Positions 6,499 through 62,587 of a stretch of DNA of 64,000 nucleotides are shown here, in pieces. The position numbers were made by a program, and so were the translations under genes. The notes below the pieces were generated by a model, which saw only the letters and a program-made list of their open reading frames with translations, was not told where the DNA came from and ran no database searches. This DNA comes from Ostreococcus lucimarinus. Taxonomy: Eukaryota. Positions within the stretch are counted from its first letter, which is position 1; each line of letters starts with the position of its first letter. The stretch is taken from the NCBI GenBank assembly GCA_000092065.1, contig CP000595.1; one strand, 5' to 3'.

Positions 6499-7006
6499 AT
6501 GTCTGGACGAGGTAAAGGAAAATCCGGCAAGAAGGCCACGAGCCGATCCGCCAAGGCGGGCTTGCAATTCCCGGTCGGCCGGGTCGCGCGCTACCTGAAG
6601 GCTGGCAAGTACGCGACGCGCGTCGGCGCCGGTGCGCCGGTGTACTTGGCGGCTGTCATGGTGAGTGGTTTTTTGAAATTTGAAATTTGAAATCGAGCGT
6701 TCGCGGCGCGCGCGGCGATGGGCTCGGGATGGTGGACGAAGACTGACGCGTTGAATCGTTGTGTTTTACGCCGCGTAGGAATACTTGTGCGCCGAAGTGC
6801 TCGAACTCGCGGGTAACGCCGCGCGCGACAACAAGAAGTCGCGCGTCGTGCCGCGCCACATCCAACTCGCGATCCGCAACGACGAAGAGCTCTCCAAGCT
6901 CCTCGGCACCGTCACGATCGCGGCGGGTGGTGTTTTGCCGAACATCCACTCCGTTTTGTTGCCGAAGAAGTCCAAGAAGTCTGGCTCGGCGTCCCAAGAA
7001 TACTAA
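6499..7006 (+). CDS. H2AX: Histone H2A.X; two exons (6499..6660, 6779..7006) with a 118-nt intron at 6661..6778
   Basis: Exon 1 reads [54 protein letters not shown]. The donor is GTGAGT. The intron contains AGACTGACG 31 nt before the AG. Exon 2 reads [75 protein letters not shown]. The C-terminal SQEY is the H2A.X SQ[E/D]-hydrophobic motif. Confidence 0.85.
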
Positions 7007-7070
7007 ATCTTTTCTCAGATTTTGAATTTTTAGCGCCTCGCGCGCGCAAACAAAACAAACCAAAAAAATT

Positions 7071-7100
7071 ACTTGGTGTTCATTCAACACCACCACGAGA
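7071..7100 (+). terminator. Possible histone-mRNA-type 3' stem-loop downstream of H2A.X (tggtgtt-cattc-aacacca), flanked by an upstream A-run and downstream CCAC
   Basis: A 7-bp stem with a 5-nt loop lies 65 nt after the H2A.X stop. It resembles the histone stem-loop but does not match it. Seen directly in the sequence. Confidence 0.25.
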
Positions 7101-7154
7101 AGAAAGAATGTTTCACTATGCGCATTACATCATCATAATTAATCGTTCGCGTCA

Positions 7155-10052
7155 TCAAGCCGGCTGGATGGCTAAGCGCTCGACGACGTTGCTCCTGGAA
7201 TCTCTCGCGAGCTTGTCGAGAGGGAACGCCGTGCGTACCATGTACTCGACGCCCTTGCGACCTTTTTGGTACGGACGCGCGATGCCCAAGAACTCCAACT
7301 CGGCCACGGCGCGAGTAAATCGCGCCTGAAGCTGCCATAATTTTTCTCGCGGCAAACCGAACGTGCCTTTACCGCGAGCCGCCGCCGCTGCATCGCCGCG
7401 TTTCATCTCCGACCCCGCTTTACTCTCGCAAAAACTTTGAAACCAGTCGTATATGGGCGCTCGTTCGCCGAATCGCGCGAGTAGGCGATACGCCGCGGCG
7501 GTGTCAGGCAACGTTTCCGGCACGCGTCGACCGTTCGCCAAGGCGTAGTCATCGTGACGACAGCACGCGCATCGCAGCAGCTCGCTCGGATCCGTGAGCG
7601 TGTTCTCCAACGACAAACGAGGCGACGCCTGAAGCGCGGCGCGAACGCATTCGACGTCGGTGACGACGAATATTCCGCTCGCATCGATCGATTCCGGTGG
7701 GTGACTCCCGTACTTGCGCGCGATGGCGCGAAGAATGTCGCAAAATTCATTCGCCGCCGCGGATTTCGCCGAGTCGAGTCGAGGTCGTTCTGGCTTCGCC
7801 GCCGTTGCCACCGTCGTCGTCACCAAAGCTAGGGCGTTGGCTTCACTCCTCGCCGGTGCGCTTCGACCGCGCGGTGGAGACTTAGGAAGTACCAAACCAT
7901 CGTTCGCCGCGGCGTCTTCATCGCGCGTTGAAGTCCTCGGCGCCGGCGTGAGGCTCGTCGCAAACGCCGCGCCGTTTCCACGCCGTTTCCGTGCGTTTAA
8001 GATTGCCTCCATCGCTAGTCGCTGATCTTCCGCGTTCGTCTCGTCGTGCGCCAGTTTTTCAGCCGTTGCATTGGCATTCGACGCAGCGATGACGAGACCG
8101 CGCCGTTCGTCGCCACCTTCGTTCGTCGGCGTGGATGCCAAAATTGCCGCCTCTCGCCGTCGAGCGTCCTCCGCGTCGAACGAGCCGTCCTCTATGTTTG
8201 ACAGTAAAAAGCGCAGCTCCGAACCTTCTGCCGACCGCATGACCTCATCATCGTCCAAGAATTTCAGCATAGACTTGACCAAATCACCGATTTCCGCCGT
8301 CGTGAACTCGTCCCGAATGCGCGAGAACGCGACGTTGAGCAACGTCCCGCCTTGACTCTTGGGGTTGAATTCTCCAGCACCACCAAAGTATCCTTTTCGC
8401 GACGCGTCGAGGAGTAAGTCTGCCATCGTCGTCACGCTCTTTTTGAACTTTTTCTCCGTCGCCGCGCACGCGACTTGAATGCAACGCAACGAGAGTGCCC
8501 ACCGTCGCCGCAAGCGGTACACATCCTTCAGCGCCGCGCTCAGTTCGCTCTTCGTGTGCGTCGTTGAAGACGCGGAGTCGCCGTCCCCGTCTCGCATCGA
8601 CTTTGCACCGAATCCGTGCTTGATGCGCGCGTACTCCACCGCGTTCGGATCGAGATCTCGAACGAATTGGTCGATGGCGTCGCCGTACTCGTCGTCGCTC
8701 TCGTCGCCGTCGGCGCAAGGCTCGCTCGAATCTTTAGCGAGCAGCGGCAACACCGCGCTCAGCGGCTCTGTCATGAAGTGTGTGATCGTGAGCAAATGGA
8801 GCGCACGACGCACGGCGGCGAGGGAAAAGTCGTGCTCTTTAAAGCGCGTGTGCAAAACGTTCAACACCTCGCTTCCAAACGCGGGCACGCGCTCGGGGCT
8901 CAACAGCACGCGCTCTTGCACAGCCTCCATCATTTGCCCGGGCGCCCAAAGCTGGAACGCCTGCGCGTTCATCAACGATGCCGTGGCGGCTGGTAACATC
9001 CCTTGAAGCGAACTCACACTCGTGGCCAAGCCCAAGAGGACGACGACGGGCACGCTCGAGACGAATTCCGAAACGCTTCGAATAAACGAATCCAACACGC
9101 GCACGTCGAAACTTTCCGTATCCTCGACGACGATAACCACCGGACAATCGCGACCTTGAATCACTGGATATAACGTCCTTTCGTCGTCGCCCGCGCGCTC
9201 CACGTCATCTCTCGCGCGCCGCTTCGACCGTCTCGCCGGCGACGTCGCGCGCGAATCTGTCGCCGCCCGCTTCTTCCCCCCCCGCGCGCGAACGTCGTCG
9301 CCCTCTCCCGATGCGCGCGAATCACCGCCATTGTACACCGTCAACGCGTTCCCGATCGGCGACGGCACCGTCGACGCCGCGATGAGCCCGTCTCGACGCG
9401 CCCCCGACGTCTCCTCGTGCCATCGCCGCAGCGCGCGCATGCTCTTCCCCCCCCAATGCCCCCCCGTGCGGTCCAACTGCCGCATGATCACCCCAAACGC
9501 CACCCCTAGCCCCCCGGTCCCGGCCCCCGCGCGCGCCTTCAGATCTCTCGACCGCAACAGCGCCACGTGCGCGTCTCCGCTCTTCCTCAACGATTTCGTC
9601 AGCGCCGCGAACGTCTCCTCGTGATCGTCGCTGTTCACCCCTCCCGCCAGCACCACGCCCACCGGCACGCGTCGATCGCCGCCGTTATTTTTTTCCTCCG
9701 TTTCTCGCGCGCGTTCGACCCGCGTCGCGCCCTGCTCGCGGACGAACCTCCTCACCCTCGCGAACGCCTCCGCGTTCGCCTCGTCGGCGACGCGTTGACA
9801 GTGTCCATCCAGCGCCTCCCACGCCCGCGCGCACGCCGCCGCGCGCCGCTCTCGCGCGCCGCGCGTTTCATCCCGCAACACCGGTTCGAACGCGTTCAGT
9901 CGCGACGCCTCGTCGCCTCGCGGCGCCGCGCGCGCGGATTTCAGCACGAAGACGCCCGACTTTAAACCATCGTTCGTCTTGAACGCCCCGATTTCTCGCG
10001 CGTCCGGCGCCGCGCGCGTCGACGCGTCGACCCGCTTGGCGCGGGACGTCAT
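7155..10052 (-). CDS. ORC3: Origin recognition complex subunit 3 (ORC3)
   Basis: ORF 7155..10541. ORC3-like core VVIVVEDTESFDVRVLDSFIRSV...VVLLGLATSV and C-terminal FTRAVAELEFLGIARPYQKGRKGVEYMVRTAF. First ATG after the low-complexity leader is at 10052 (MTSRAKRVDAS...). Confidence 0.75.
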   Translation of the reverse strand: MTSRAKRVDASTRAAPDAREIGAFKTNDGLKSGVFVLKSARAAPRGDEASRLNAFEPVLRDETRGARERRAAACARAWEALDGHCQRVADEANAEAFARVRRFVREQGATRVERARETEEKNNGGDRRVPVGVVLAGGVNSDDHEETFAALTKSLRKSGDAHVALLRSRDLKARAGAGTGGLGVAFGVIMRQLDRTGGHWGGKSMRALRRWHEETSGARRDGLIAASTVPSPIGNALTVYNGGDSRASGEGDDVRARGGKKRAATDSRATSPARRSKRRARDDVERAGDDERTLYPVIQGRDCPVVIVVEDTESFDVRVLDSFIRSVSEFVSSVPVVVLLGLATSVSSLQGMLPAATASLMNAQAFQLWAPGQMMEAVQERVLLSPERVPAFGSEVLNVLHTRFKEHDFSLAAVRRALHLLTITHFMTEPLSAVLPLLAKDSSEPCADGDESDDEYGDAIDQFVRDLDPNAVEYARIKHGFGAKSMRDGDGDSASSTTHTKSELSAALKDVYRLRRRWALSLRCIQVACAATEKKFKKSVTTMADLLLDASRKGYFGGAGEFNPKSQGGTLLNVAFSRIRDEFTTAEIGDLVKSMLKFLDDDEVMRSAEGSELRFLLSNIEDGSFDAEDARRREAAILASTPTNEGGDERRGLVIAASNANATAEKLAHDETNAEDQRLAMEAILNARKRRGNGAAFATSLTPAPRTSTRDEDAAANDGLVLPKSPPRGRSAPARSEANALALVTTTVATAAKPERPRLDSAKSAAANEFCDILRAIARKYGSHPPESIDASGIFVVTDVECVRAALQASPRLSLENTLTDPSELLRCACCRHDDYALANGRRVPETLPDTAAAYRLLARFGERAPIYDWFQSFCESKAGSEMKRGDAAAAARGKGTFGLPREKLWQLQARFTRAVAELEFLGIARPYQKGRKGVEYMVRTAFPLDKLARDSRSNVVERLAIQPA

Positions 10053-10854: not shown

Positions 10855-12774
10855 TTACGTCGAGCCTTCGCGGCGCGCGACGGCGGCGCGCATCAACTCG
10901 AGCGCGGATTTGAGAAACGTGGCGTTGGACTTGATGGATGAGATCGTGAACTCGGCGGCGGTGATGATGTCTCTCCACTCGTGTCCGCCGACGGCGACGC
11001 AGAGCTTGATATCGCCCTTGGCGACGGCGCCGACGCGCGCGGCGATGGCGACGCGGCTGAGACGCCACGTCGCGCGCGCGACGCCGGCGATGGTTTCCAA
11101 CGCCATGGTGATTTCTTCGACGGTGATGGACGAGTTTGGTGCGAGCTCCGACGTGCCGGTTTCGGCGGCGACGGAGGTCAGCATGGAAACCTCGGGCGCG
11201 CCCGCGGCGGCGACGGCGGCTTGGCACTGCGCTATGTCGATGGCGCTCTCACTGATTTGAATGAAATCCACACACGTTTTCGACGCCGTCGTCGTCGTGG
11301 ACGAGCGCGGGAGCTTGTCGAACTCGAGCGTGGTGGTGGCTTCTTCAGATTTCACCGCGCGAGATTTTCCGGGCAAAAGTCCCGTCGCCTCCGCCCGCGT
11401 CGTCGTCGCGTCCTCCGAGTGCGTCGTCGCGTCGTCGCTCAAATTCACCTCGTTCACGATCTTCTCGGTGCCGAACTGTTTCAACTGCGCCGAGAGCGCG
11501 ACGTGGTTATCCATGTGTTCGTGCATGTGTTTCAACCCTTGCTCGATTTTTTCGCGCTCTTCGCGAATTAAGCGAAATTGCGAATTAAGCGCCGAACGAC
11601 TCACGCCGCGTTGCTTCCCGCTCGCGTCCTCAGTCTTCGACGTCTTCTTCGCCGGCGCGCTCTTCGCCGCGCCATCCTGCTTCGCCGCGACTACTTTCTC
11701 TTCCGCTTCCTCCATTTCCGCCTCCACCAACGCTTTCGGTCGCGGGTGCAGCGTCATCTGATACTTTTGCAACTCGGTGAGCTTCCACGGTTCCGACTTC
11801 ACCTTGCCCCACTTGCATCGAAGCGTCGCGTGCCAGTGATTCTTGATGGCGTTCTCCGGTCGTCCGGTCAAGAGCTTGGCGAGCGCGGCCCACTTCGTGC
11901 CCAGCACTTTGTGCCCCTCGACGAGGATCAGCTCCTCCTCCTTGCTCCACTCCCCAGTCTTGATTCCGGGTCGAAGGTGGTTCAGGTAACGATCTCGACA
12001 CTGCTTTCCGCGTCTGTGACGCATTAAACTCGCGATGTAACTCCACCGTTTCGCGCCGTATTTATCGATCAACTGCAGCAACTCCTTGTCCTCGCGCACG
12101 GTCCACTGTTGCGTCATCCCTTTAAGTTTACCCTCGCGCATCTCCGCCTCGTACGCGTCGTCTTCGCTCGCGTCGCCGTCGCCGTCGCCGTCGCTCGTCG
12201 AGGCCAACCCGGCGGCGGCGCGCGCCGCCGACCGCGCCGCCATCCCCCGAACCGTCTCTCGCACCTCCGTCTCCACCGTCCCCGCCGTCGCCGCCGTCGA
12301 TTGTCTCTTCATCGGCGGTCGCCCTCGTCGCGCGCGTTTCGTCCTCTCTCGCTCCGGCGCCGCGTTTTCCGCCGCCTGCGCGCGCGTCGCCCGAAAAGTC
12401 AACCGTCAGTCGTCGCGCGCGCCCTCGCGTCTCGCCTCGATCCCGACCTTCCCGCATCTCCCGTTTCGCGCGTCGCCTCGCTCGATCCCGCGCACCTCGA
12501 CCAACCAAAACAACGATCCCGCGTCCTCGACCGCCTTCGCCTTGGGCGGTCGACCGCGTCGTCGTTTCTTCGTCGTCGCCCTCGGTTCCGGCTCTCGCCG
12601 CGCGCGCGCCGTCGCCGCGATCGCCCCTTCGTTCGCCCGCGCCGCGCCGTGCGTCGCCGCCGACAAGTCGTGTTCGCCGGCGACGTCAGTGTCGTTCATT
12701 TTCGCGTCGCCCGCGTCGCGCGCGTGGTTCGCGTCGTCGCGCGACGGCGATTCGTTCGCCGCGACGATCGTCAT
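10855..12774 (-). CDS. R2R3-MYB transcription factor with two AT-hooks; proposed two exons (12774..12496, 12375..10855) with a 120-nt intron at 12376..12495
   Basis: MYB repeats present: WTVREDKELLQLIDKYGAKRWSYIA...EWSKEEELILVEGHKVLGTKWAALAKLLTGRPENAIKNHWHATL. The track start at 12402 is TTG. ORF 12406..12774 begins with a true ATG at 12774 and ends with ...TTKKRRRGRPPKAKAVEDAGSLFWLVE. It is followed by GTGCGC ... CGACTGACG ... 33 nt ... CAG, then joins in frame to AAENAAPERERTKRARRGRPPMKRQ... (a second AT-hook). The alternative single-exon model starts at ATG 12312. Confidence 0.6.
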
Positions 12775-13022: not shown

Positions 13023-15176
13023 CTAGAAATCGGCGTCGAAGGCGGCGACGCGAGCGACGATGGACTCGAGACGCTCCCACTCGTCGTAATAGAGCGCCTG
13101 CTTGGCGAGCTTTTCGTCCTTTTGGCGCTGAAGATCGAGGGCGCGAGCGACGTCGGCGCCGGCGGCGACGAGGTCGGCGTCGAGCGCGGCGATTCGGGCG
13201 TCGAGGACGGCGAGCGCGCGCTCGATTTTGTCGATGGTTTTGGGGGCGTTGGCGGCCTCTTTTTCCATCGCGCGACGGGATTTGCGGGCTCGTTCGTCGT
13301 CGGTGGCGTCGGCGGCGGCGGCGGCGGTGGGGGGGGGTGGACGCTCGGTCGGCGGCGCTCGCGCGGCGTAGTCGCCGACGCCGAGCTCGTCGCCGGCGAC
13401 GCGCATTCGCGCGGAGAACGCGCCGTTTTCAACCTTGGCGACGATCGTGGGGTTGAGCGCGGCGGCGAAGGCGGGGTTGTGCGTGATTGCGATCACCGCG
13501 CCTTCCCACCCGCGCAATCCATCGCACAAGGCTTCGATGGCGGTGCCGTCTAAATGATTCGAGGCTTCGTCGAGGAGTAACACGTTGACCGGTTTCAGCA
13601 CGAACGCGGCCAAGGCGACTCGAGCTTTTTCGCCGCCGGACAGACTGCCGATCGTGCGATCGACTGCTGCGGAACCAGTGATGCCGAGTGCGCCCAGAAC
13701 GCCGCGCGCGCGCTCCATCGTAATCGATTTATCAACCTTGCGCGCGACGTCGAGCACGTGTGTCAACGCGTCCACCTCCGCGGGCAGCTGCTGCGCCAAG
13801 TCTTGCGAAAAGTATCCCACGACGCAACCCTCGCCGCGCTCGACCGTTCCGCTCATCTCGGGTAACTCCCCGCCGATCGTTTTCAGGAACGTCGACTTGC
13901 CGGCGCCGTTCGGTCCGATGACGAGTAACCGGTCGCCCTTGGTCACGGTCACGTTGACGTCGGTGACCAACGTCGAGCCGACGGCTGCGTAGCCGACGGC
14001 TAAATCTTTCGCGATGAGAATTTCTCTCGCGCCTTGCGGTGGATTTGGAAGTCTCAAGACGACTTTTTTAGCGTCACCCGGCCCTTCTCCCAGATCGCCT
14101 TCTCCCGCGAGTTCGGTCAAGTCTTCGATTTTTTCTTGCACCTTGTCGAGGGCTTTCGCCTTGGACTTCGCCGCGGACGCCTTCGTGGCCTTGGCGCCGA
14201 ATTTCGTGATAAACTCATTCAATTTAGCCGCTTTTTGTCCCTCTTTCTCGAGCGACGAGAGCGCTTGCGCGCGTCGCGCCTCTCTCTCCTTGAGAAACCG
14301 CGCGTAGTCGCCCTTGAAATTGCCCAACTTTCCGCCGCGCACTTCGACTATGCGATCCACGCACGCGAGCAATTCCTCGTCGTGGGACACCAACACCACC
14401 GTGCCGGCGTACGATTTGATCCAATTCACGAGCCACGCCCGCGCGTCGCCATCCAAGTGATTGCTCGGCTCGTCCAGCAGCAACAGCCCGCCCTTGACGC
14501 CCGCCTCGCGAGAGTCTCCGGCCGGCGACAGCAGCGTCCTTGCGAGCGCGACTCGCATCTGCCATCCCCCGCTCAGCGTGTCGCACCGCGCCCGCATCAC
14601 CGCCTCGCTGAACCCAAGTCCTTTCAGCACGCTCGACGCGCGCTTCTCCGCCGTCGCGCCGCCGACCGCGTCGTATCTCTCCCGCGCGTCCGCCAACCGC
14701 GCCGCCGCGCCCGCCTCATCCGCCGCCAACGCGCGCGTCGCCCGCTCCACCGCCGCTTCCGCGTCTCGCACGTGCGTCATCCTCGACGTCGCTTCCTCGA
14801 ACACCATCAATTTGCTTCCGCTCGTCGCAGTCTGTTCCAGCGCGCCGACCGTGACTCCCATCGCGACGCCGAAGCCGACGCCGTTCGCGTCCCGCTCGCC
14901 GAGCAGCGCTCGCACGAGCGTCGTCTTCCCGCACCCGTTCGCGCCGACGACGCCGCATATCTCCCCCGGCTCCACGCGCACTGGATCGCCGTCGCGCGTG
15001 CCCGCGATGAGGTCGCGCGCGCCCGTCGTCACGCGCACGTCGGCGTCGAAAACGACGACGGCGCCGGCGGTTTCGCCGCGCGGGACGCTCGCGGGACGCG
15101 CGAGGTCGCGACGCGCGCGCCGGCGCGCGGGACCGCGCGCGCACACCGCGCGCGCGGTCGCGGGGCGCGTCGACAT
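13023..15176 (-). CDS. ABC-F family ATPase (two NBDs, no TMD; GCN20/ABCF-like, with probable organellar presequence)
   Basis: Two Walker A motifs (GVVGANGCGKTT; VIGPNGAGKSTF), two ABC signatures (LSGGWQMRVALAR; LSGGEKARVALAA), Walker B motifs LLLLDEPSNHLD and LLLDEASNHLD, and a C-terminal coiled coil. True ATG at 15176. Confidence 0.85.
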   Translation of the reverse strand: MSTRPATARAVCARGPARRRARRDLARPASVPRGETAGAVVVFDADVRVTTGARDLIAGTRDGDPVRVEPGEICGVVGANGCGKTTLVRALLGERDANGVGFGVAMGVTVGALEQTATSGSKLMVFEEATSRMTHVRDAEAAVERATRALAADEAGAAARLADARERYDAVGGATAEKRASSVLKGLGFSEAVMRARCDTLSGGWQMRVALARTLLSPAGDSREAGVKGGLLLLDEPSNHLDGDARAWLVNWIKSYAGTVVLVSHDEELLACVDRIVEVRGGKLGNFKGDYARFLKEREARRAQALSSLEKEGQKAAKLNEFITKFGAKATKASAAKSKAKALDKVQEKIEDLTELAGEGDLGEGPGDAKKVVLRLPNPPQGAREILIAKDLAVGYAAVGSTLVTDVNVTVTKGDRLLVIGPNGAGKSTFLKTIGGELPEMSGTVERGEGCVVGYFSQDLAQQLPAEVDALTHVLDVARKVDKSITMERARGVLGALGITGSAAVDRTIGSLSGGEKARVALAAFVLKPVNVLLLDEASNHLDGTAIEALCDGLRGWEGAVIAITHNPAFAAALNPTIVAKVENGAFSARMRVAGDELGVGDYAARAPPTERPPPPTAAAAADATDDERARKSRRAMEKEAANAPKTIDKIERALAVLDARIAALDADLVAAGADVARALDLQRQKDEKLAKQALYYDEWERLESIVARVAAFDADF

Positions 15177-15251
15177 CGCGCGCGCGCGCGGCCGGCGTCC
15201 CGGCGCGCGCGCGGCGACGCGGCGCGAACTGAAGGTCGAGCGTCGAGCGCG

Positions 15252-19109: not shown

Positions 19110-19841
19110 ATGGCGGAGCACCTGGCGAGCATCTTCGGCACGGAAAAGGACCGCGTGAACTGTCCGTTTTACTTTAAGATCGGCGCGTGTCGTCACGGCG
19201 ATCGCTGCTCGCGGCTGCACAACAAGCCCACGGCGTCGCAGACGATCCTGCTGACGAATCTGTACCGTCCGGACGTCGAGGTGGCGGCGGACCCGCGGGC
19301 GGCGACGAGCGGGGCGGCGAGCCGGGCGGGGCGAGGGCAGGAGGGATTCGAGGCGTTCGTCGAGGACGTCTTCGAGGAGCTGGACGAGTGCGGAGAGATC
19401 GAGGGCGTGAACGTGTGCGATAACGTCACGGATCACATGATGGGGAACGTGTACGTGAAGTTCGTCGAGGAGGAGGCGGCGGGTCGAGCGGTGGAGAAAT
19501 TGAGAGGGAGGTATTACGACGGACGACCGATCGCGGCGGAATTTTCGCCGGTGACGGATTTCAGGGAGAGCACGTGCAGGCAGTACGAGGAGAATTCGTG
19601 CACGCGGGGGGGGTACTGCAACTTCATGCACTTGAAACCGATCGGACGAGGCATGCGGAAGCGGTTGTACGGACGGTACTTGGGAGGAGGGCGACGCGAA
19701 CGACGCGAGGGCGAGCGGAGTCCGGGGCGAAAGCGCGAGAGAGACGACGGGGAGGACGACGGTCGAGTCACCGCCAAGGGGATGTCGGACGACGCGCGAC
19801 GGGCGATGTTCGCGTCTTGGAACGACGCCGACGACGAATGA
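19110..19841 (+). CDS. U2AF1: U2 snRNP auxiliary factor small subunit (U2AF35)
   Basis: [45 protein letters not shown]..., a central RRM-like region, a second CCCH zinc finger ([19 protein letters not shown]) and an RS/RG tail. True ATG. Confidence 0.9.
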
Positions 19842-25085: not shown

Positions 25086-25157
25086 TCGGCTCGAACGGTC
25101 GATCGGTGCGGTGCGTTTCTCGATTGATATAGCTACGGTGAGTGCGAACGTGCGTCG

Positions 25158-26597
25158 CTAGAGGAAATCGGCGTATCGCGAGGTGAAGTCGCTCTTGCTG
25201 CGTTGGCACCACCCGCTCGAACTGCTGTCGCTCGGATTGACCACGATGTTGTTGTCGAAGTAGATGACGGATCCTGTTTCGAACTCTTCTTTTTCGTTGA
25301 TGATTTTCGGACGGTCGAGTCTCGCGAACCACGTGCCGAGAATCTTGTGAAAACGCCACGAGGAGGCGTGGAGCTCGTTCGCTGCGAGCAATTTGAGTCT
25401 GTCTCTGCCGTAATAGAACGTGAAAAACAAGGCGTCGCTATCGAGACGTTTGAAGAGCGCCGGGTTGTCCAACTGGCATCCGGGCGGTATGTCTCGAGGT
25501 GATCGCGGATACGACGATGGCGTCGCGATTTTACTCTTTTGCGGCGCCGACGCGGATTTCTTTGCGTTCTTCTCGCTCGATAACCGCCAATTCGCATCCG
25601 CGCTGAGTCCTTCGCGCGGAAGCTTGGCGCACGCGATTTCGAGCAAGCGATGGCTGACATGTCGGTCATTTATAACGACGCCGCGAATCGACACGCCCGA
25701 TGGAATATCGGCGTGTTCGAGAGCCATGGCACCGCCGCTCTCGGGCGAAATCTCACCGTACGCGTGTCCGCCGCGCGACAGTTCATCCAGGCTCAACAAT
25801 CCATTCCCGGGTAAATCGAAAATACACGCGTCCGGATGCATCCCGGTCGTAACCTTCGCGCGCGAAGTCGACGCAGACGACTTTTTCGGCGACGTCGCCT
25901 CGAATTTCGCCTGCAAACGATTTACCGCCGCGCCTTCGTCGCCGCCGTCCTCCGAGCGTTTCGGCTTCTTCGCCTGCGCCTCCGCCGGGGTCGAAGGCGT
26001 CGACGTCCCCGACGTCGACGCTTCATCTACCGCCGCTCGCATCGCGCCGTCTTTCCCCGGCGTTTCCAAACGCTCGACGTCCGCCTCGCTCGCCTCGGCT
26101 CCCGCCTCATCGTCGCCGTCGCCGTCCTTCGTCGCGTCCGCCGCCAAAACGCTCTCAAACCACCCGATATCCGCCGCGCACTCCCGCATCGCGTCCTCGA
26201 TCTTCGCCGTCACCGCGTCGTCGACGTCATTGTTTTCTCTGTATTCCATCAACTCCCGCACGAGGTCGCGCAGGCGCGCGATCTCTCGAGTCAACTCCGT
26301 CTGCCCGTTCGTTCGTCGATTCGACGCGATTTCTCTCGTCAGTCTCGTCGCCGTTGACCGACCCTCTCGTCACCGACGCGCCGCCGCGCGCCTTCGCGGC
26401 GACCATCGCGCGCTCGTTCGTCTCGAATCATCGTCCGCGATCGCGTCGCGCACCTCGGCGCGTCGACGCGCGGCGTCGTCGTCGGCGGCGTTCGTCTCGC
26501 GAATCAGCTCGACCGCGCGCGCGGCGTGTTCGCGACACCCATCGATGCGCTTCGTTCGGCTCTGTATCTCCGCCGCGTGTCGTCCGGGAAGCGTCAT
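25158..26597 (-). CDS. CCR4-NOT complex subunit 3/5 (CNOT3-like); proposed two exons (26597..26454, 26300..25158) with a 153-nt intron at 26301..26453
   Basis: C-terminal NOT box (PALFKRLDSDALFFTFYYGRDRLKLLAANELHASSWRFHKILGTWFAR). Track start 26294 is TTG. Upstream exon from ATG 26597 (MTLPGRHAAEIQSRTKRIDGCREHAARAVELIRETNAADDDAARRRAE) ends at GTGCGC; AGACTGACG lies 41 nt before CAG. The joined product ...E|TELTREIARLRDLVRELMEY resembles the CNOT3 N-terminal Not3 domain (EIDRCLKKVSEG...KKEIKKLQRLRDQIKTW). Confidence 0.6.
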
Positions 26598-27465
26598 GCG
26601 CGCGCGATTCGGTCGCGCGCGCGCGCGCGCGGCGCGTCGCGGTCGGCGGCGCCGCGCGCGTCGATGAGTGGCGATTTTGACGCGCCGAGAGACGAACAGA
26701 CACTTCGACGCCGACGCCGCGGCGCGTCGACCGGAACGAAGGGCGATATCATACAAATTTATCGTAACACTCGACGCGGGCGCTTCGCGAGACGCGACGA
26801 TCGAGCGCGGTCGTCGTCGACCCGCGCGCGCGTTCGCGGCGTCAGCCGTGCGAACAAACTTTACGCGCGCGAGCGTCACCTCGCCGCGCTCGATCGTCGC
26901 GCCGTCGCGCGAGTCGCCCTTCGCGTCGTTCGCGTCGCTCGCGTCACCCGCATCCGGCGCCCGAGGACGCGTCGCCCGTCAACCCTAAATCATCCGCGCT
27001 CAGCTCGCGCTCGAGGGCCTCGATGATCTCCAGCGCGCTCGGCGGTCGGCCTCGCGAGAGCGCGCTGAACGCGGCGTCCTTCGCGCGCGCCCCCTCGAGA
27101 TCCGCCTCTCCCGACCCATCGTCCAGGCTGTCGCACACCACCACCTCGAACGCCCCCGGTCGAGGTCCCGCGTCGCCGACGACGCGCGCGTCGTTGCCGT
27201 CCACCATCAATCGCGGGAACGCGTCCTCGACGGCGTCGGCGACGGCGAGAAATGCATTTAAATGCTTCCCTTCGTCGTATTCGACGTGAATCGTCCTCGG
27301 CGGCGCGTTCCCGAGCGCGCTTCGTCACGCGTACGCGCGGTAGACGACGCGCGCGCGAAGTCGCTCGCATCCGCGCCGCGCGAGCGCGCGGAGCGCGGAC
27401 ATGACGACGTCGAAGCGGCGAAACGTCGCGCAGTGACGCTTTATCCGGGACACCGCGACGTCACG

Positions 27466-31951: not shown

Positions 31952-32938
31952 ATGCTCTGCTCCGCGCTGAACGCGCGAACGACGACGTGCGGACGAACGA
32001 CGACGATGCGAGGCCTGGCGTTGGGAAGACGCGCGGCGCGCGTCGGCGCGCGAGGCGTCGGGACGACGACGCGCGCGTCGCAGGCGGAATCTCAAACCGC
32101 GACGAGCGAACAACAACAGGGAGAACAATCTCAGCAAGGTGGTTTGCAGCGACAGCAAGAGCAGAAGCGAGCGCTGGCGCGGTCGCCGTTGTCTTCTATG
32201 ATGGCGTTTCCGAGTCTGATGTCGGGCATGACGCCGTTCGGGTTGTCGAGAAGCATGCAGAGAGAGATGGCGAACATGATGAACTTGATGGATGACATGA
32301 TGACGGGCGGGGCTCTGGCGCCGTTTGAGACGCTGGATCCGTTTAAGATCACGATGCACGCCGATCACACGCAAGGGGTGCCTCAACAAATCTTGAACTT
32401 TCCGATGGGTACGACGACGACGACGACGACGCGAGCGAGCGAGAGCAAACGAGAGCGGGACGAAACCTTGAATCACGAGCGAGCGAGAGCAAACGAGAGC
32501 GAGACGAAGCCTCGAATCACGACGTGAACGACTGACGTTTGACTCATCGTCGACCCTTTCCGCGCACCACCAGACGTGATTCAAAAGAAGGACAAGTACA
32601 TCGTCAAGGCTGATTTACCGGGCCTGTCGATGAAGGATGTCAGCGTCGAGGTGGACGAAAAGAATCGCATCTTACACGTCACGGCAAAGCGCGAGCACCG
32701 AGCCGAAGAACAAGACGAAACCGTGGACAAGGGCGCGAAGTGGGTCGCGTACGAACGGTTCTACGGCAAGATGGATCGCTCGTTCGGCCTTCCCGAAGAC
32801 GCGGTGGCGGAAAAAGACGCCATCAACTGTCGATTGGTGAACGGCGAGCTCACGGTGTCCATCAAGCGCAACCCGCCGCAGGAGGAAGAGGCCGAGAAGC
32901 AGGCGCCGCGCACGAAGATTCCGATCATGGATCACTAA
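31952..32938 (+). CDS. Small heat-shock protein (HSP20/alpha-crystallin) with organellar presequence and Met-rich N-domain (chloroplast HSP21-like); two exons (31952..32408, 32574..32938) with a 165-nt intron
   Basis: Exon 1 reads MLCSALNARTTTCGRTTTMRGLALGRRAAR...SPLSSMMAFPSLMSGMTPFGLSRSMQREMANMMNLMDDMMTGG...ILNFPM(G). The donor is GTACGA; the intron contains CGACTGACG 40 nt before CAG. Exon 2 carries the ACD: DVIQKKDKYIVKADLPGLSMKDVSVEVDEKNRILHVTAKRE...KWVAYERFYGKMDRSFGLPEDAVAEKDAINCRLVNGELTVSI. The join completes a GAC (Asp) codon. Confidence 0.8.
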
Positions 32939-39575: not shown

Positions 39576-39797
39576 AGCCGTAGCTTAGTCGAAAATGTAG
39601 ACACCGGACGCGCGTTCGGACGTCGATCGCGACGCGTCCGACCGCGGCGTCGTCTCGCGCGCGTCGAGTGAAATAAAACGCCCGCCTCACTGAAAACGCA
39701 TACGTAACATGTGACCAAATCGGGACGGGTTTTCGTGACCGGCGCGCGCGCCAAAGCCCTAACGCGCGTGCGCGATCGGCCTTTCGCGACGCGCACG

Positions 39798-41288
39798 ATG
39801 CCCGCCGCGCTCCCCGTGGTCTCCGTCCAAGGCGGCAACGGCGCCACGAGCGCCCTGCCCGAAGTCTTCCTCTCCCCGATTCGTCCGGACATCGTCAACG
39901 CCGTGCACACGGGGCTGAACAAGAACAACCGTCAGGTGCGGCGGAGCGCGACGCGACCGCGCGATGCGAACGAGGGCGACGCGTGGACGCGCGCGCGACG
40001 CGAACGAGGGCGCGGGAACGAGAGAGCGACGACTGACGAATGTGCGCGCGTCGTTTTTGCGATCGCGATAGGCGTATGCGGTGTACAACCGAGCTGGGTG
40101 CGTCGACGACGCGAACGCGCGATCCATCGCGACCTCGGCGGGCGTCTGAACCCTCACCAGAGAGGGTTTCGGAGGCGCGCGACGACGACGACGGCGCGGC
40201 GCGGTGCGAGCGAACTCGAACGAGAGACTGACGAAAGATCGATTTAAACGAACAGGCACCAAACTGCGGCTGAATCCTGGGGTACCGGTCGCGCCGTGTC
40301 TCGTATTCCGCGCGTTCCGGGCGGCGGTACGCACCGCGCCGGTCAAGGGGCGTTCGGGAACATGTGCCGCGGCGGTCGCATGTTCGCGCCGACCAAGGTG
40401 TGGCGCCGCTGGCACCGACGCGTGAACTTGAAGGAGAAGCGATATGCGGTGTGCTCTGCGCTCGCGGCGTCCGCCGTGCCGGCGCTTTTGCTCGCGCGCG
40501 GTCACCGCGTCGAGGGCGTTCCGGAGGTGCCGCTCGTCGTCGACGACAGCGCGAGCTCCATCAAGAAGACGGCCAAGGCGGTTGAATTGTTGAAGCAACT
40601 CGGTGCGTACGCGGACGTCGAAAAGGTCAAGGCGAGCCGTAACATTCGTTCCGGTAAGGGTAAGATGCGTAACCGTCGTTACGTCCAACGCCGAGGCCCG
40701 CTCGTGGTGTACTCTGAGGACAACGGCGTCACGCGCGCGTTCCGCAACATTCCGGGTGTGGAATTGTGCTCCGTCGACCGCCTCGGTTTGCTCACGCTCG
40801 CCCCGGGTGGACACGTCGGCCGATTCATCATCTGGACCAAGAGTGCCTTCGACAAGCTCGACTCCATCTTTGGCACTGCGTCCAAGAAGAGCGCGTCCAA
40901 GAAGGGCTGGAAGCCGCCGACGAACATCATGGCGCAAACCGACTTGGCGCGTCTCATCAACTCTGATGAAGTTCAAAGCGCCGTCAACGCGCCGAAGGTT
41001 GGTGCTACGCGCGCGCACGCGCCGCTCAAGCGCAACCCGCTCAAGAACAAGTCCGCCATGGAACGCCTCAACCCGTACGCCAAGGTCGCTCGCGAGATGC
41101 AAGCTCGCGCGCAGGAGGAGCGCTCCAAGGCTAAGGCGAAGAAGAGCGCCACTGCGCGCTCGGCGGTTGGCCAAAAGTTCTACGAATCCATGAAGGTGGA
41201 CTCCAACTACGAAGGCGAACTTTTCGAAGATTTCGACGACTGGCTCACCCGCGGCGCGCCCGTGGTGCAAGGCGGCGACGACGAATAA
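39798..41288 (+). CDS. RPL4: 60S ribosomal protein L4 (uL4); three exons (39798..39935, 40072..40097, 40256..41288) including a 26-nt micro-exon
   Basis: Exon 1 reads [46 protein letters not shown] followed by GTGCGG. The micro-exon GCGTATGCGGTGTACAACCGAGCTGG (AYAVYNRAG) is flanked by AG and GTGCGT. Exon 3 begins ...[54 protein letters not shown].... Both introns contain [CA]GACTGACG 27-38 nt before the AG. The total is 1197 nt (398 aa), matching canonical RPL4 ([26 protein letters not shown]). Confidence 0.85.
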
Positions 41289-41497
41289 GCGTCTTAGCAA
41301 CGGACCATTTAGCTCGTTTGTCATTACGAACACACACCCTAATGACCCTAATGAAATTAAGAAACAGTCGCCAGCAGGCTGTGCGACCGCGCTACTTTGA
41401 CTAACTCTCTAGATTATGCTACAAAAACCGTGCTACTACTAATCGCGGCGAGAAGACGGCTCAACTTCTCATCGCTCTATAACAAACGACGCGTTTG

Positions 41498-50713: not shown

Positions 50714-52183
50714 ATGTTGTCCCGGGGCGTCGGCGGCGGCGCCGTCGCGCGCGCGGCGGCGCGCGGGCGAGCGAACGGCGCGCGAGGACGCGATACGAGA
50801 CCGTGCGCGCGAGGGTTCGCCGCGGACGAGCGCGCGCGCGAACGCGCGGTGGTGGTGGCGGCGAACGCGGACGCGACGCGGCGCGGGACGAAGGTTATCG
50901 CGCGCGCGGCGAACGCGGCGACGAGTGGAAAGATAAAGAAGGCGGAAGAGGCCAAGGTGAAGACGAAGACGAAAAGTTTGATGAAGAAGGCGCTGCGCGT
51001 GGAGGCGGTGAGCGCGGTGGTGGAGGCGGAGGTGGAGCGAGAGACGGCGTCGACTCGAGGGTCGGCGGCGAGCGCGGGGATGGAACCGAAGCCCATGATC
51101 GCGCCTAGGGTGAGTAAACAGGCGAAAGCGAAGGATGGAGTGAATGGGAAGAACGGTGAAGGGGCGACGAGCGGTGAGGGGACGACGCGGCTGACGAGAC
51201 CGAAGTTTGCGGACGAGGCTTCGTTTACGCGCCGGCGTAAATTTCCAGTGTTGTTTTACAGTAAAGAGATGGAGCCTTTGGCGCGAAAGGTGGCGGAGGA
51301 GAGCGATCACATGGTCGAACTCGGACAGATTGATTGGCGCACATTCCCCGATGGGTTTCCAGACTTGTTCATCAACGACGCGTACGATGTGCGGGATCGG
51401 CACGTGGCGTTTTTAGGCTCGTTTCACACGCCCGAGGTCATCTTTGAGCAGTTGAGCATCATATACTCGCTGCCCAAGATGTTTGTCGCATCGTTCACGC
51501 TCGTGCTGCCGTTTTTTCCAACTGGCACCGCCGAGCGAGTGGTACGCGAGGGCGAGGTCGCCACCGCGGTGACGTTGGCGCGGATTTTGAGCAACATTCC
51601 GCCCTCGCGCGGGGGCCCGACGAGCACCATTATTTTCGATATTCACGCTCTTCAGGAGCGATTTTATTTCGGCGACAGCATCTTGCCATGCTTCGAAAGC
51701 GGCATACCGCTCTTGCTCGACCGTCTGAACGAGCTCGAAGACTCGAACAACGTCGTCATCGCGTACCCAGATGAGGGAGCGTACAAGCGATTCAACTCCT
51801 TCTTCGCCGCCGCGGGTTACGAGTGCATCGTCTGCACCAAAGTCCGCGAAGGCACCAAGCGCATCGTCAAGCTCAAGGAAGGCGAACCGATCGGGCGCCA
51901 CGTCGTTATCGTGGACGATCTCGTACAATCCGGTTCCACCCTGATCGAGTGTCAAAAGCTCTTGCACCGACTCGGCGCCGCCAAGGTGTCCGCCTACGCC
52001 ACTCACGGCGTTTTCCCCAATGCCTCCTGGAAACGTTTCACCTCCACCGGCGCCGGCGGCCAGGGTTTCTCAAACTTTTGGATCACCGATTCGTGTCCAC
52101 AAACCGTCGAGGCCGTTCGAGACGCCGAGCCGTTCGAGGTATTATCCCTCGCCCGCGCCATCGCCGACGCCCTCGAGGTGTGA
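50714..52183 (+). CDS. PRS: Ribose-phosphate pyrophosphokinase (PRPP synthetase), plant-type class II, with N-terminal extension
   Basis: [66 protein letters not shown]...[30 protein letters not shown]...[14 protein letters not shown]...[15 protein letters not shown] (PRTase motif). True ATG. Confidence 0.85.
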
Positions 52184-60081: not shown

Positions 60082-60335
60082 GCGACGCCGGCGAGTGCGG
60101 AGACGCGAACGCGATCGAACCTCGATCGCGCGCGCGTCGATCGCGTTTGAAATTCAATCGTCACGACGTCGATCGACGATGGACGCGATCGAGGTTCGAT
60201 CGAGATCGAGAGGTCGAGACGCGAGAGCGACGCGACGGAGACGCGAGAGGCGCGCGAGGCGCGCGCGGGAAGGGCGGGATTTCACTGGTGTTACAGGGAT
60301 GATGGGTTCGGTGATGATCGTCGCCGGCGAATCGA

Positions 60336-61075
60336 TCAACCGGGATAGGTCTCGGTGAGCGCGGATAACGTCTTCGGTAAGCCGACGAATTTCAACTCGC
60401 CCCACTGTCGCCACGCGAAGGCGCACGTTAAACAGTTGAGCACGATGGTCGCCGCGGCGAAAATCAGGGAAACCAAACTGTAATCTGCGTTTTTGCACAC
60501 GTAATAATCCGAACTCAATACCACGGACGCGCACTCGGTGATGGACATGACGACGAACGTCGCCATGGCCGCGGTGAACAGCGCGTAGGACGCGAACTCC
60601 GTCCCGGGCGGCGGCGCCTTGCGAATCACGTACATCGCGATCAAGATCACCGTGTACGCCCAGAATCCCGCGTACACACCGACGACGCCCTTAAATTGAT
60701 AAAACTTCGTGAATCCACACCCCGCTTCACCGCAGTCGTTCAGCGTGCTCAGCTCCGGCCCCGCCAGTCCCTCGGTTTGTTTCGCCATGAACGAAAACGT
60801 CGTCAACGCCATCAACTGTTCGTTCGTCGTCGTCGTCGCGTCCTAGGTCAGTCTCCGCGCGTGCGAGTTCACCGTCGCGTCGCGTCGCGTCGCGTCGCGT
60901 CGCGTCGCGTCCCACGCACGCTCTCCACGAGCAACGCTCGAAACTTTGGATTCTTCATCAGCCTGTGATTCATCAGCGACGTCCCCTCCACGCTCGCTCC
61001 CACGCGTTTCAGCAGCGGTTCCCGCGCTTCGTCCGACGCCCCGGGCGCGTCGTCCATCGTCTCATCGCTCGCCAT
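60336..61075 (-). CDS. Hypothetical four-TM small membrane protein; proposed two exons (61075..60920, 60815..60336) with a 104-nt intron
   Basis: Exon 1 from ATG 61075 reads MASDETMDDAPGASDEAREPLLKRVGASVEGTSLMNHRLMKNPKFRALLVES and ends at the donor GTGCGT. The intron contains a (GCGTC)n run and AGACTGACC 31 nt before ACAG. Exon 2 (track ORF 60336..60815) reads LMALTTFSFMAKQTEGLAGPELSTLNDCGEAGCGF...FWAYTVILIAMYVIRK...FTAAMATFVVMSI...SLVSLIFAAATIVLNCL... Track ORF 60869..61294 otherwise runs into RRDATRRDAT repeat junk. Confidence 0.45.
60874..60913. repeat. (GCGTC)8 pentanucleotide repeat inside the proposed intron
   Basis: cgtcgcgtcgcgtcgcgtcgcgtcgcgtcgcgtcgcgtc. Confidence 0.8.
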
Positions 61076-61413
61076 CCCGCGATATCCCTCGTCGTCGTCG
61101 TGTCGTCGTCTGAAGCGACGGCTCAACACCTTCGAGGTGTTGAGCCGTCGATCCATCGATCGATCGATGCGCGATGCGATCGACGCTTTGAGTTTCGTTT
61201 CATATCGTCGATCGACTCCGCGAGGTTCGACGCGACGCGATTTCATCGTTCGACCGCTCGAACGTTTGCGGCGACGGCGCGGCGCGCGCCGCACACCTCC
61301 GCGCGCGGAGGCGTCACCGCGCGCGCGCGTCGTCGATCGCGCGCGAATCCGCGAACGCGTCGCGCGCGCTTCCCGACGCCGCCGATCGCGCGCGCGGCGC
61401 GGCGTCGCGTCGA

Positions 61414-62587
61414 ATGCCCCCGTCGACGACGCTGCTCCGCGCGCGCGATCTCGAGCGCGCGCTCGCCGAGCCGTGGCCGAACGCGCGATGCGCCACGGCG
61501 CTCGACGACGCGATGATCGACGCGCTGAAAAATCGGTTCGCGATCATGACGCCGTTCGCGAGGCGCGGGGCGGTGTGCGCGGCGATGTTGGCGTCGAAAC
61601 GCGCGACGAGCGCGCGCGCGATCGCGACGTGGCGGGACGTCGCGGCGGGAGACGCGGATGAGTGGGTGCGAGCGATGGCGCGGGCGATGGATGAAAGCGG
61701 GGAAAGATTCGATTGCGACCGATTCGCGACGGATGTGCCGGTGGTGCGTGTGCGAGCGATGCGCGAGCGAGGGGAATGCGACGAGAATTCATTCGGGAAG
61801 GCACCGTGGTGTGAATGAACCCTAACGCGAAGGACGCGGGAAACGACGCGGGAAACGACGCGGGAAACGATTACTGACGAATGAACGCCGCGGTGTTTGG
61901 TAAACTTAGGTGAATACCGCCGTGCGGGCGATAAAGGAGACGATTGCGAACGCGGGGGAGGATGGGATGACGCGAAGACCGCGCGCCGACGCCTACCTGA
62001 CGATGAAAGAGCCGACGGCGCATGGACACTTCACGCTGAGAGAACGGCGCGAGCCGAAGAAGCGGCCGATGAGTGCGGGAAGTCGAGGTGCAACGATCGC
62101 GGGCGATGGTTCGTCGCAAGTGAATCGCGCGCAGGCGAACATCTTTGCGCCGTCGCGCAAGCCGACGGCCAGCGGAGGCGCTTCGTTTTTGCGCGACACG
62201 GGTCGATCTGGCAGTGTCGGTGCCGCGCGTTCGCGAGTCGGTGGCGGCATTCCTCGTCCAGGGGCGAAGACTATGGTCATCGACGTCGCCGAAGCCGCGC
62301 AACTCGGCGCTACTTCGCAAATCGACGATCCTCTCCGAGCGCAAGCGCAGGAGGAACGCGATCGCAAACGTCAACGAGAAAAGGAGGCCAAGGAGCAACG
62401 CATGCAGAGATTGATGCAAGAAATCGAGGCAAAGAAACAAAGGGAATTGACGAGAAAACGCGAACGCGACGAAGAAATTTTGGAGAAGAAGAAGGCTTAC
62501 CGGGCGGAGATTGAAGCAAAGCGCGCGAACAAGCGCGTCGCTTCCATCGCCACGCCGTCGCCCACGGACGAACCGGCGACGTGGTGA
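61414..62587 (+). CDS. Hypothetical protein with C-terminal charged coiled coil; proposed two exons (61414..61743, 61910..62587) with a 166-nt intron
   Basis: Exon 1 (true ATG) reads MPPSTTLLRARDLERALAEPWPNARCATALDDAMIDALKNRFAIMTPFARRGAVCAAM...DCDRFATDVPV and is followed by GTGCGT. The intron carries 3x gacgcgggaaac tandem repeats and TTACTGACG 32 nt before TTAG. Exon 2 starts exactly at the first codon after that AG (track ORF 61910 has a GTG 'start') and reads VNTAVRAIKETIANAGEDG...EERDRKRQREKEAKEQRMQRLMQEIEAKKQRELTRKRERDEEILEKKKAYRAEIEAKR... Confidence 0.45.

What the first reader, a model, noticed from the sequence alone, without database searches (positions are those of the whole stretch)
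6661..61909. All detectable introns share a rigid donor / branch / acceptor signature that can be used to re-annotate this locus
Eight introns (6661-6778, 12376-12495 minus, 26301-26453 minus, 32409-32573, 39936-40071, 40098-40255, 60816-60919 minus, 61744-61909) are 104-166 nt long. Six of eight begin GTGCG[CGT]; the others begin GTGAGT and GTACGA. Every one contains [AC]GACTGAC[GC] placed 27-41 nt upstream of the 3' AG. Introns 1-3 are the first intron and lie close to the start codon. A branch site this invariant, similar to yeast, is a practical gene-finding key in GC-rich DNA where all six frames are open. It exposed four 5' exons that the stop-to-stop ORF track splits off or loses. No other region in the window has the full signature on the coding strand, so the remaining genes appear to be intronless.
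Basis: seen in the sequence. Interest (0 to 1): 0.6.

Follow-up and report, generated by a model that had tools for sequence, protein, structure and literature searches.

The report
Known Ostreococcus intron splice signature
The eight short interruptions are genuine spliceosomal introns of the green picoalga Ostreococcus lucimarinus, and their rigid GTGCG donor and ACTGAC branch signature was already described for this species in 2008, so the finding is correct but ordinary.

Summary
The window comes from a 468-kb chromosome of Ostreococcus lucimarinus CCE9901. All eight proposed introns sit at the stated coordinates.

- **Transcript evidence:** RNA-derived public contigs, 99.6-100% identical to the window, lack six of the introns exactly at these junctions: 6661-6778, 26301-26453, 32409-32573, 39936-40071, 40098-40255 and 61744-61909.
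- **Other support:** the GenBank protein model and orthologues contain the junction of 60816-60919. For 12376-12495, two related algae keep the exon end, donor, branch site and acceptor at the same place.
- **Signature:** six of eight donors are GTGCG[CGT], and all eight introns have ACTGAC. The longer pattern [AC]GACTGAC[GC] holds in seven of eight. The acceptor is always the first AG at least 10 nt after the branch A.
- **Prior work:** Irimia and Roy (2008) reported GTGCGTG, ACTGAC (87%), GACTGACG (66.5%) and a branch-to-AG spacing of 20-35 nt for EST-confirmed introns outside chromosome 2 of this species.
- **Practical gain:** GenBank model XP_001421726.1 (NOT2/3/5 protein) lacks the 5' exon that the transcript shows.

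I found no further introns, but non-consensus ones cannot be excluded.

The parts
6661..6778 (+). Intron 1 (118 nt, phase 0) of the histone H2A gene (exons 6499-6660 and 6779-7006). Donor GTGAGT, branch AGACTGACG, acceptor TAG.
   Evidence: Contig L001 is 99.4-99.8% identical and lacks exactly this interval. The spliced 129-aa product equals XP_001421582.1. Pfam precomputed for that product lists Histone and Histone_H2A_C.
12376..12495 (-). Intron 2 (120 nt, phase 0) of a Myb/AT-hook gene (exon 1 from 12774 or 12699 to 12496; exon 2 12375-10855). Donor GTGCGC, branch CGACTGACG, acceptor CAG.
   Evidence: No spliced transcript was found. Two related algae keep the intron at the same place: L023 has LFWLVQ|GTGCGTT...GGACTGACGCG...CAG|AAENAAP (101 nt) and L025 has LLWLVE|GTGCGTG...AGGACTGACGA...CAG|AAEKAAP (146 nt). 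The 95%-identical variant L009 has an in-frame TAA two codons before the acceptor and frame-restoring indel pairs in exon 1.
26301..26453 (-). Intron 3 (153 nt, phase 0) of a NOT2/NOT3/NOT5-domain gene (exon 1 26597-26454; exon 2 26300-25158). Donor GTGCGC, branch AGACTGACG, acceptor CAG.
   Evidence: Logan contig L008 (SRR11178182) aligns to 27369-26454 and then 26302-25101 at 99.9-100% identity. Its product P0122 reads ...AARRRAE|TELTREI.... GenBank XP_001421726.1 (363 aa) starts at an internal Met and lacks exon 1.
32409..32573 (+). Intron 4 (165 nt, phase 1) of a small heat-shock protein gene (exons 32006-32408 and 32574-32938). Donor GTACGA, branch CGACTGACG, acceptor CAG. It contains a 44-nt tandem duplication.
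   Evidence: Four independent Logan contigs, L003-L006, lack the interval. The spliced 255-aa product equals XP_001421587.1. The tandem repeat is reported.
39936..40071 (+). Intron 5 (136 nt, phase 0) of the ribosomal protein L4e gene (exon 1 39798-39935). Donor GTGCGG, branch CGACTGACG, acceptor TAG.
   Evidence: Contig L002 is 100% identical and aligns to 39796-39936, then 40070-40098, then 40255-41348. The spliced 398-aa product is in the collection and matches the Pfam Ribosomal_L4 family.
40072..40097 (+). 26-nt micro-exon 2 of the L4e gene, lying between introns 5 and 6.
   Evidence: It is present as a 29-nt block in the spliced contig L002. It encodes AYAVYNRAG within the conserved L4e N-terminus.
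40098..40255 (+). Intron 6 (158 nt, phase 2) of the L4e gene (exon 3 40256-41288). Donor GTGCGT, branch AGACTGACG, acceptor CAG. It has the shortest branch-to-end spacing of the eight (24 nt).
   Evidence: Supported by the spliced contig L002 and the motif measurements.
60816..60919 (-). Intron 7 (104 nt, phase 0) of a CASP-like membrane protein gene (exon 1 61075 or 61057 to 60920; exon 2 60815-60336). Donor GTGCGT, branch AGACTGACC, acceptor CAG.
   Evidence: GenBank XP_001421740.1 (P0127) contains the junction ...FRALLVES|LMALTTF.... The O. tauri orthologue P0065 and protein P0071 from the 'merc' source are continuous across it. P0064 and P0066 read through an insert at the same position that begins with V (GTG).
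61744..61909 (+). Intron 8 (166 nt, phase 0) of an uncharacterised gene (exons 61414-61743 and 61910-62587).
   Evidence: Logan contig L007 aligns to 61169-61746 and then 61909-64000. The spliced 335-aa product equals XP_001421593.1.

Best explanation
These are eight ordinary U2-type GT-AG spliceosomal introns in seven nuclear genes of Ostreococcus lucimarinus CCE9901. They belong to the 'constrained' intron class that fills the intron-poor bulk of this genome, meaning everything outside the intron-rich part of chromosome 2.

Shown here:
- The intervals are absent from mature RNA, and their removal restores the reading frames.
- The acceptor used is always the first AG lying at least about 10 nt beyond the branch A, 24-38 nt downstream of it.
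- There is no consistent polypyrimidine tract. The introns are 12.5% T and 62% purine.

Inferred from the standard splicing pathway:
- U1 snRNP recognises the near-invariant donor GUGCGU.
- SF1/BBP and then U2 snRNA pair with (G)ACUGAC(G), a perfect CURAY-type branch site, and bulge the penultimate A as the nucleophile.

The rigidity of the signals fits the published pattern in which intron-poor genomes converge on strong 5' splice sites, strong branch sites and constrained branch-to-AG spacing.
For: - Organism: spliced products are exact matches to O. lucimarinus CCE9901 GenBank proteins on a 468,366-bp contig.
- Spliced RNA-derived contigs remove introns 1, 3, 4, 5, 6 and 8 at the predicted junctions. 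The ambiguity is 1-4 nt and is resolved by the GT-AG rule.
- The intron 7 junction is in XP_001421740.1 and is conserved in orthologues.
- The position and signals of intron 2 are conserved in two other lineages, while the intron interior and length differ.
- Signals: GTGCG in 6 of 8, ACTGAC in 8 of 8, GACTGACG in 6 of 8, motif-to-AG spacing 21-35 nt, terminal YAG in 8 of 8.
- The first eligible AG is used in 8 of 8.
- Published values for EST-confirmed non-chromosome-2 introns of this species are GTGCGTG, 87.2% ACTGAC, 66.5% GACTGACG and a branch-to-AG peak of about 20-35 (PMC2483917).
Against: - Intron 2 has no transcript evidence. Neither an exact junction search nor a protein-guided scan of metagenome contigs found a spliced copy.
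- The branch adenosine is inferred from the motif. It was not mapped.
- By motif counting alone the signature is only modestly above chance.
- That the supporting contigs derive from RNA is inferred from the clean absence of the introns in otherwise near-identical sequence. I did not verify it from sample metadata.
Confidence: 0.95

Rival explanations
1. The motif combination is a chance co-occurrence in GC-rich DNA, and the intervals are not removed from the mRNA. On this view the genes start at downstream ATGs or read straight through.
For: GTGCG is very common, with 154 sense-strand copies in coding sequence. Shuffled windows still give 1-4 full signatures. ACTGAC is not enriched overall. 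GenBank models the NOT gene without intron 3.
Against: Spliced contigs exist for six of the eight. Three spliced products match GenBank proteins exactly. The H2A and L4e junctions restore conserved protein sequence. Introns 2 and 7 are at conserved positions in relatives.
Confidence: 0.02
2. The introns are copies of a mobile 'introner element' family, as in Micromonas, and the shared signature reflects common descent from one element rather than selection on splice signals.
For: The donor and branch motifs are shared. Four of the eight introns carry internal tandem repeats. Some intron pairs share short GACGC- or CGA-type runs.
Against: With the signals masked, pairwise local alignments score only 15-43, which is at most about 20 matching bases of low-complexity sequence. 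There is no full-length similarity. The positions of introns 2 and 7 are shared with other species while the interiors differ, so these are old introns and not recent insertions.
Confidence: 0.02
3. The atypical donor (C at +4) and the extended branch motif are read by a modified or second spliceosome, with co-evolved U1/U2 snRNAs or dedicated proteins, distinct from the machinery that handles chromosome-2 introns.
For: GUGCGU has a C at +4, which by my recollection of the canonical U1 5' end would mismatch it. Irimia and Roy raise the same possibility as 'worth exploring' (PMC2483917).
Against: The same paper reports that a computational search found only single copies of the spliceosomal snRNA components in O. 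tauri, and it considers a single spliceosome more likely. ACUGAC fits the general CURAY consensus. No snRNA gene lies in this window, so nothing here tests the idea.
Confidence: 0.08

Closest known systems
Constrained non-chromosome-2 introns of Ostreococcus lucimarinus (Irimia & Roy 2008, PLoS Genet 4:e1000148; PMC2483917)
   Same: Same species. The donor consensus is GTGCGTG, the branch motif is ACTGAC/GACTGACG, the branch-to-AG spacing is 20-35 nt, and the introns are short and GC-rich. The eight introns here give 75% GTGCG, 100% ACTGAC, 75% GACTGACG and 21-35 nt spacing.
   Different: Nothing substantive differs. The published weak 3' preference CGCAG is seen in only one of the eight here, although YAG is seen in all eight. 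The paper did not frame the motif as a re-annotation tool for individual loci.
Hemiascomycete yeast introns (GTATGT ... TACTAAC ... AG)
   Same: Both occur in intron-poor genomes and have a near-invariant donor and branch site, a 5'-biased position in genes, and frequent presence in ribosomal-protein and histone-type highly expressed genes.
   Different: The motif letters differ (GTGCGT against GTATGT, ACTGAC against ACTAAC). These are GC-rich introns with no T-rich tail. The resemblance is an independent evolutionary convergence and not shared ancestry.
Micromonas introner elements
   Same: Both are short introns in a related Mamiellophyceae alga that share sequence features across many genes.
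   Different: Introner elements are alike along their whole length and are recent insertions. The introns here share only the splice signals and occupy positions that are conserved between species.
Chromosome-2 (outlier-region) introns of Ostreococcus
   Same: They are in the same genome and are presumably handled by the same spliceosome.
   Different: Chromosome-2 introns are described as shorter (40-65 nt), with weak GTRNGT donors, and fewer than 5% share a branch hexamer. The introns here are 104-166 nt with strong signals.

Membership tests
U2-type GT-AG spliceosomal intron | GT at the 5' end and AG at the 3' end | tested here: met
   8 of 8.
U2-type GT-AG spliceosomal intron | Interval absent from mature RNA, with flanking exons joined | tested here: met
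   Six of eight are removed in spliced contigs. Intron 7 is supported by the GenBank model and orthologues. Intron 2 is supported only by comparative evidence.
U2-type GT-AG spliceosomal intron | CURAY-type branch site about 18-40 nt upstream of the acceptor | tested here: met
   ACTGAC is present in 8 of 8, with the branch A 24-38 nt from the intron end. Use of that A as the branch point was not mapped.
U2-type GT-AG spliceosomal intron | Removal restores a continuous reading frame and the expected protein | tested here: met
   All seven genes give open spliced frames, including H2A, L4e and HSP20. The spliced products of introns 1, 4 and 8 match GenBank proteins exactly, and that of introns 5 and 6 matches a JGI record.
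O. lucimarinus constrained (non-chromosome-2) intron class | Donor consensus GTGCGTG | tested here: met
   6 of 8 are GTGCG[CGT], and 2 of 8 match the full GTGCGTG.
O. lucimarinus constrained (non-chromosome-2) intron class | ACTGAC branch hexamer (87% published) and GACTGACG (66.5% published) | tested here: met
   8 of 8 and 6 of 8 respectively.
O. lucimarinus constrained (non-chromosome-2) intron class | Branch-motif-to-AG spacing of about 20-35 nt | tested here: met
   21-35 nt between ACTGAC and the AG.
O. lucimarinus constrained (non-chromosome-2) intron class | Located outside chromosome 2 | tested here: inconclusive
   The source contig is 468,366 bp. From memory, chromosome 2 is about twice that size. 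The chromosome number was not retrieved.
Micromonas-type introner elements | Full-length sequence similarity among copies | tested here: not met
   Only short low-complexity matches remain once the splice signals are masked.
U12-type (minor spliceosome) intron | Donor [AG]TATCCTT and branch TCCTTAAC 10-15 nt from the 3' end (motifs recalled from memory) | tested here: not met
   The donors are GTGCG, GTGAG or GTACG, and the branch motif is ACTGAC at 24-38 nt from the end.

The most novel reading that the evidence does not exclude
The C at donor position +4 (GUGCGU) and the extended GACUGACG box might be matched by co-evolved U1/U2 snRNAs or a lineage-specific splicing factor in Ostreococcus. 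That would mean two functionally distinct intron-recognition modes in one tiny genome, one for the constrained bulk introns and one for the degenerate chromosome-2 introns. Nothing in this window tests the idea. Irimia and Roy list it as open but think it less likely.
Probability: 0.08. Interest if true: 0.5.

Novelty: already known. Interest (0 to 1): 0.12.

Why it matters
The main value is practical. The published signature does work as a locus-level annotation check in a genome where every frame is open. In this window it recovers a 65-residue N-terminal exon of a CCR4-NOT subunit-like protein that GenBank model XP_001421726.1 omits but a transcript contig contains. It also correctly places a 26-nt micro-exon in the L4e gene. 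It adds no new biology, because the donor, branch site and spacing rules were described for this species in 2008.

Tried and rejected
- **Near-signature at 36537 (GTGCGC) ... 36644 GACTGACGG ... AG 36664/36668/36692/36695.** I tested this as a ninth intron. The donor sits 9 nt before the stop codon of gene 35226-36548. Splicing would extend the protein into AT-rich sequence that carries a tRNA gene on the other strand, and the branch-to-AG distances (15, 19, 43 and 46 nt) fall outside the 24-38 range. Rejected. The contigs retrieved for this gene were long genomic contigs and said nothing about splicing.
- **CTGAC-based weak candidates on the sense strand.** These were 11252-11146, 15326-15229, 61922-62040 and 51110-51217. 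The first three would break the reading frame, and 61922-62040 also lies in a stretch that is continuous in transcript contig L007. The last is in frame but looks like ordinary K/G-rich coding linker and has a non-consensus branch site. It remains untested.
- **Spliced transcript for intron 2.** An exact 26-nt junction search and a protein-guided scan of metagenome contigs found only unspliced genomic copies. Exact look-ups of the spliced Myb protein with two alternative ATGs also failed.
- **Selection against ACTGAC on the sense strand.** I tested for avoidance in coding sequence with synonymous-codon shuffles. The result, 1 observed against 4.2 expected, is not significant (22 of 200). CTGAC is depleted equally on both strands, so the depletion is not related to splicing.
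- **Population variants for intron 4.** Contigs L017-L022 are about 99.5% identical to the window, which is too close to be informative.
- **Introner-element test.** Negative.
- **Rfam scan for snRNAs.** None found in the window.
Full report
**Source of the window**

The window is 62.5% G+C. I spliced the proposed exons and looked the products up by exact sequence. Three products are GenBank proteins of Ostreococcus lucimarinus CCE9901, all on a 468,366-bp contig:
- histone H2A, XP_001421582.1
- a small heat-shock protein, XP_001421587.1
- an uncharacterised protein, XP_001421593.1

**Check of the observation**

All eight intervals begin with GT, end with AG, and are 104-166 nt long.
- Six donors are GTGCG[CGT].
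- All eight contain ACTGAC.
- The extended pattern [AC]GACTGAC[GC] holds for seven. Intron 61744-61909 has TTACTGACG instead.
- The stated 27-41 nt spacing is reproduced when measured from the first A of ACTGAC to the A of the terminal AG. Put another way, the branch A is 24-38 nt from the intron end, and 21-35 nt separate the motif from the AG.
- The acceptor is always the first AG at least 10 nt beyond the branch A. Three introns (26301-26453, 40098-40255 and 60816-60919) have closer AGs, 4-6 nt from the A, and these are skipped.

**Is it more than chance?**

Taken alone, the motif statistics are modest.
- ACTGAC occurs 15 times on both strands, against 18.7 +/- 4.4 in shuffles.
- GACTGAC occurs 9 times, against 7.9 expected.
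- Full signatures number 8 against 3.9 +/- 2.0 under a loose definition, and 6 against 1.1 +/- 1.0 for GTGCG + GACTGAC (0 of 300 shuffles reach 6).
- GTGCG is abundant in coding sequence (154 sense copies), so the branch motif carries the specificity.

What stands out is that eight of the 15 ACTGAC copies lie in 1,120 nt of intron. Every full-signature hit is also a true intron.

**Evidence that the intervals are spliced out**

| Intron | Evidence |
|---|---|
| 1 (6661-6778) | JGI contig L001 aligns to 6484-6661 and then 6778-9248 |
| 5 and 6 (39936-40071, 40098-40255) | L002 is 100% identical and aligns to 39796-39936, 40070-40098 and 40255-41348, which also confirms the 26-nt micro-exon |
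| 4 (32409-32573) | Four Logan contigs, L003-L006, lack it |
| 8 (61744-61909) | L007 lacks it |
| 3 (26301-26453) | L008 lacks it |
| 7 (60816-60919) | The junction is present in XP_001421740.1, and the O. tauri orthologue and a protein from the 'merc' source run continuously across it. Two relatives' proteins carry an in-frame insert at exactly this point beginning with V (GTG), as expected if a GTGCG-type intron is read through |
| 2 (12376-12495) | No transcript evidence (see below) |

The ambiguity of 1-4 nt at each junction is resolved by the GT-AG rule.

At the protein level, the H2A junction gives ...APVYLAAVM|[20 protein letters not shown] and the L4e junctions give ...NKNNRQ|AYAVYNRAG|[14 protein letters not shown]. 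From my own knowledge of these families, both lie in conserved core sequence. Family membership itself is confirmed by Pfam matches to the spliced products.

For intron 2, neither a junction search nor a protein-guided scan found a spliced copy. The comparative evidence is nevertheless strong.
- A relative whose protein is 44% identical (L023) has LFWLVQ|GTGCGTT...GGACTGACGCG...CAG|AAENAAP, with a 101-nt intron.
- A more distant relative (L025) has LLWLVE|GTGCGTG...AGGACTGACGA...CAG|AAEKAAP, with a 146-nt intron.
- A 95%-identical environmental variant (L009) has a TAA two codons before the acceptor and frame-restoring indel pairs in exon 1.

**Position of the introns in their genes**

All eight introns lie 46-134 codons after the probable start codon. 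Seven are in phase 0, 0, 0, 1, 0, 0 and 0, and the L4e second intron is in phase 2.

**Other possible introns**

- The only other near-signature, at 36537...36668, is rejected.
- Weaker CTGAC-based candidates either break the frame or look like coding sequence.
- Pfam domains of most of the other roughly 28 genes are matched from end to end within single ORFs. A few, such as the kinase at 4705-6108, match only part of the profile.
- Their ORFs have plausible ATGs.
- The RNA-derived contigs show no further gaps over 6778-9248, 25101-27369, 30436-34760 and 61169-64000.

**Mechanism**

These are ordinary U2-type introns. The excision, the frame restoration and the use of the first eligible AG are shown here. 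Recognition of GUGCGU by U1, and pairing of ACUGAC with U2 with the penultimate A bulged out, are inferred from the standard pathway.

The introns are T-poor (12.5% T), purine-rich (62%), and lack a consistent pyrimidine tract. With the signals masked, the interiors share only short low-complexity runs, so they are not an introner-type repeat family.

**What is already known**

Irimia and Roy (2008, PMC2483917) analysed 319 EST-confirmed introns outside chromosome 2 of this same species. They reported:
- 87.2% with ACTGAC
- 66.5% with GACTGACG
- the atypical donor consensus GTGCGTG
- a branch-to-AG peak of about 20-35 nt
- a weak CGCAG preference at the 3' end

They interpreted this as convergence of intron-poor genomes on strong splice signals. 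The eight introns here fit those numbers (100%, 75%, 75% GTGCG, 21-35 nt). The finding is therefore correct and already known.

**The one practical gain**

GenBank models the NOT2/3/5 gene as 363 aa starting from an internal Met (P0109). The transcript contig L008 and the splice signature support a 428-aa protein with an extra 5' exon.

Noticed in passing
window 36829-37002 (-): Rfam finds a full-length tRNA (48 bits, model positions 1-71). By my reading it is tRNA-Lys(CUU), interrupted after the anticodon loop by an intron of about 101 nt and followed by a T-run. ARAGORN missed it.
   Followed up: partly
window 25158-26597 (-): GenBank model XP_001421726.1 (363 aa) for the NOT2/3/5-domain gene starts at an internal Met and omits exon 1 (26454-26597). 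A transcript contig (L008, product P0122) contains the spliced exon.
   Followed up: yes
window 40072-40097 (+): The ribosomal protein L4e gene has a 26-nt micro-exon flanked by two full-signature introns. The exact 398-aa spliced product was found only in a JGI record and not under a GenBank accession among the cluster members listed.
   Followed up: partly
window 28522-30769 (-); arrays 28860-29211 and 29902-30505: Two adjacent ankyrin-repeat genes carry arrays of an 81-nt (27-aa) unit at 85-86% match. The segments 29147-29517 and about 30441-30811 are 94.6% identical, so this looks like a recent tandem duplication. The region is also lower in G+C (about 58%).
   Followed up: no
window 19110-19841 (+): An intronless gene encodes [37 protein letters not shown]... 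with a zf-CCCH / RRM / zf-CCCH layout. By my reading that is the architecture of the U2AF small subunit, the factor that reads the 3' AG. Its presence here is incidental.
   Followed up: partly
introns at 32432-32522, 39958-40014, 60873-60911, 61833-61870: Four of the eight introns contain internal tandem repeats, with units of 44, 17, 5 and 12 nt. Taken together the introns are T-poor (12.5%) and purine-rich (62%) on the sense strand and have no polypyrimidine tract.
   Followed up: partly
all coding sequence in the window (about 54 kb): CTGAC is depleted on both strands of coding sequence relative to synonymous-codon shuffles (17 against 26.8 sense, 18 against 31.1 antisense). Because the depletion is symmetrical it is not a splice-signal avoidance effect. 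The cause is unknown.
   Followed up: partly
L001, L003, L007, L008 against window 6484-9248, 30436-34760, 61169-64000, 25101-27369: Contigs that lack the introns nevertheless run on through neighbouring genes, in three of the four into genes on the opposite strand. This suggests overlapping transcripts or untranslated regions in this very compact genome, or chimeric assembly.
   Followed up: no
window 15113-15208 (-): ARAGORN calls a 96-nt tRNA-Asp that overlaps the start of the ABC-F ATPase gene. Rfam does not support it at its gathering score, so it is probably a false positive.
   Followed up: partly
window 10855-12774 (-): The precomputed Pfam lists for this Myb-domain gene's close homologue and for many of its other homologues include a MoaE hit, which the one table that grades hits marks as weak, in the conserved C-terminal part, alongside two Myb repeats and AT-hooks. 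This is an unusual combination that I did not examine further.
   Followed up: no
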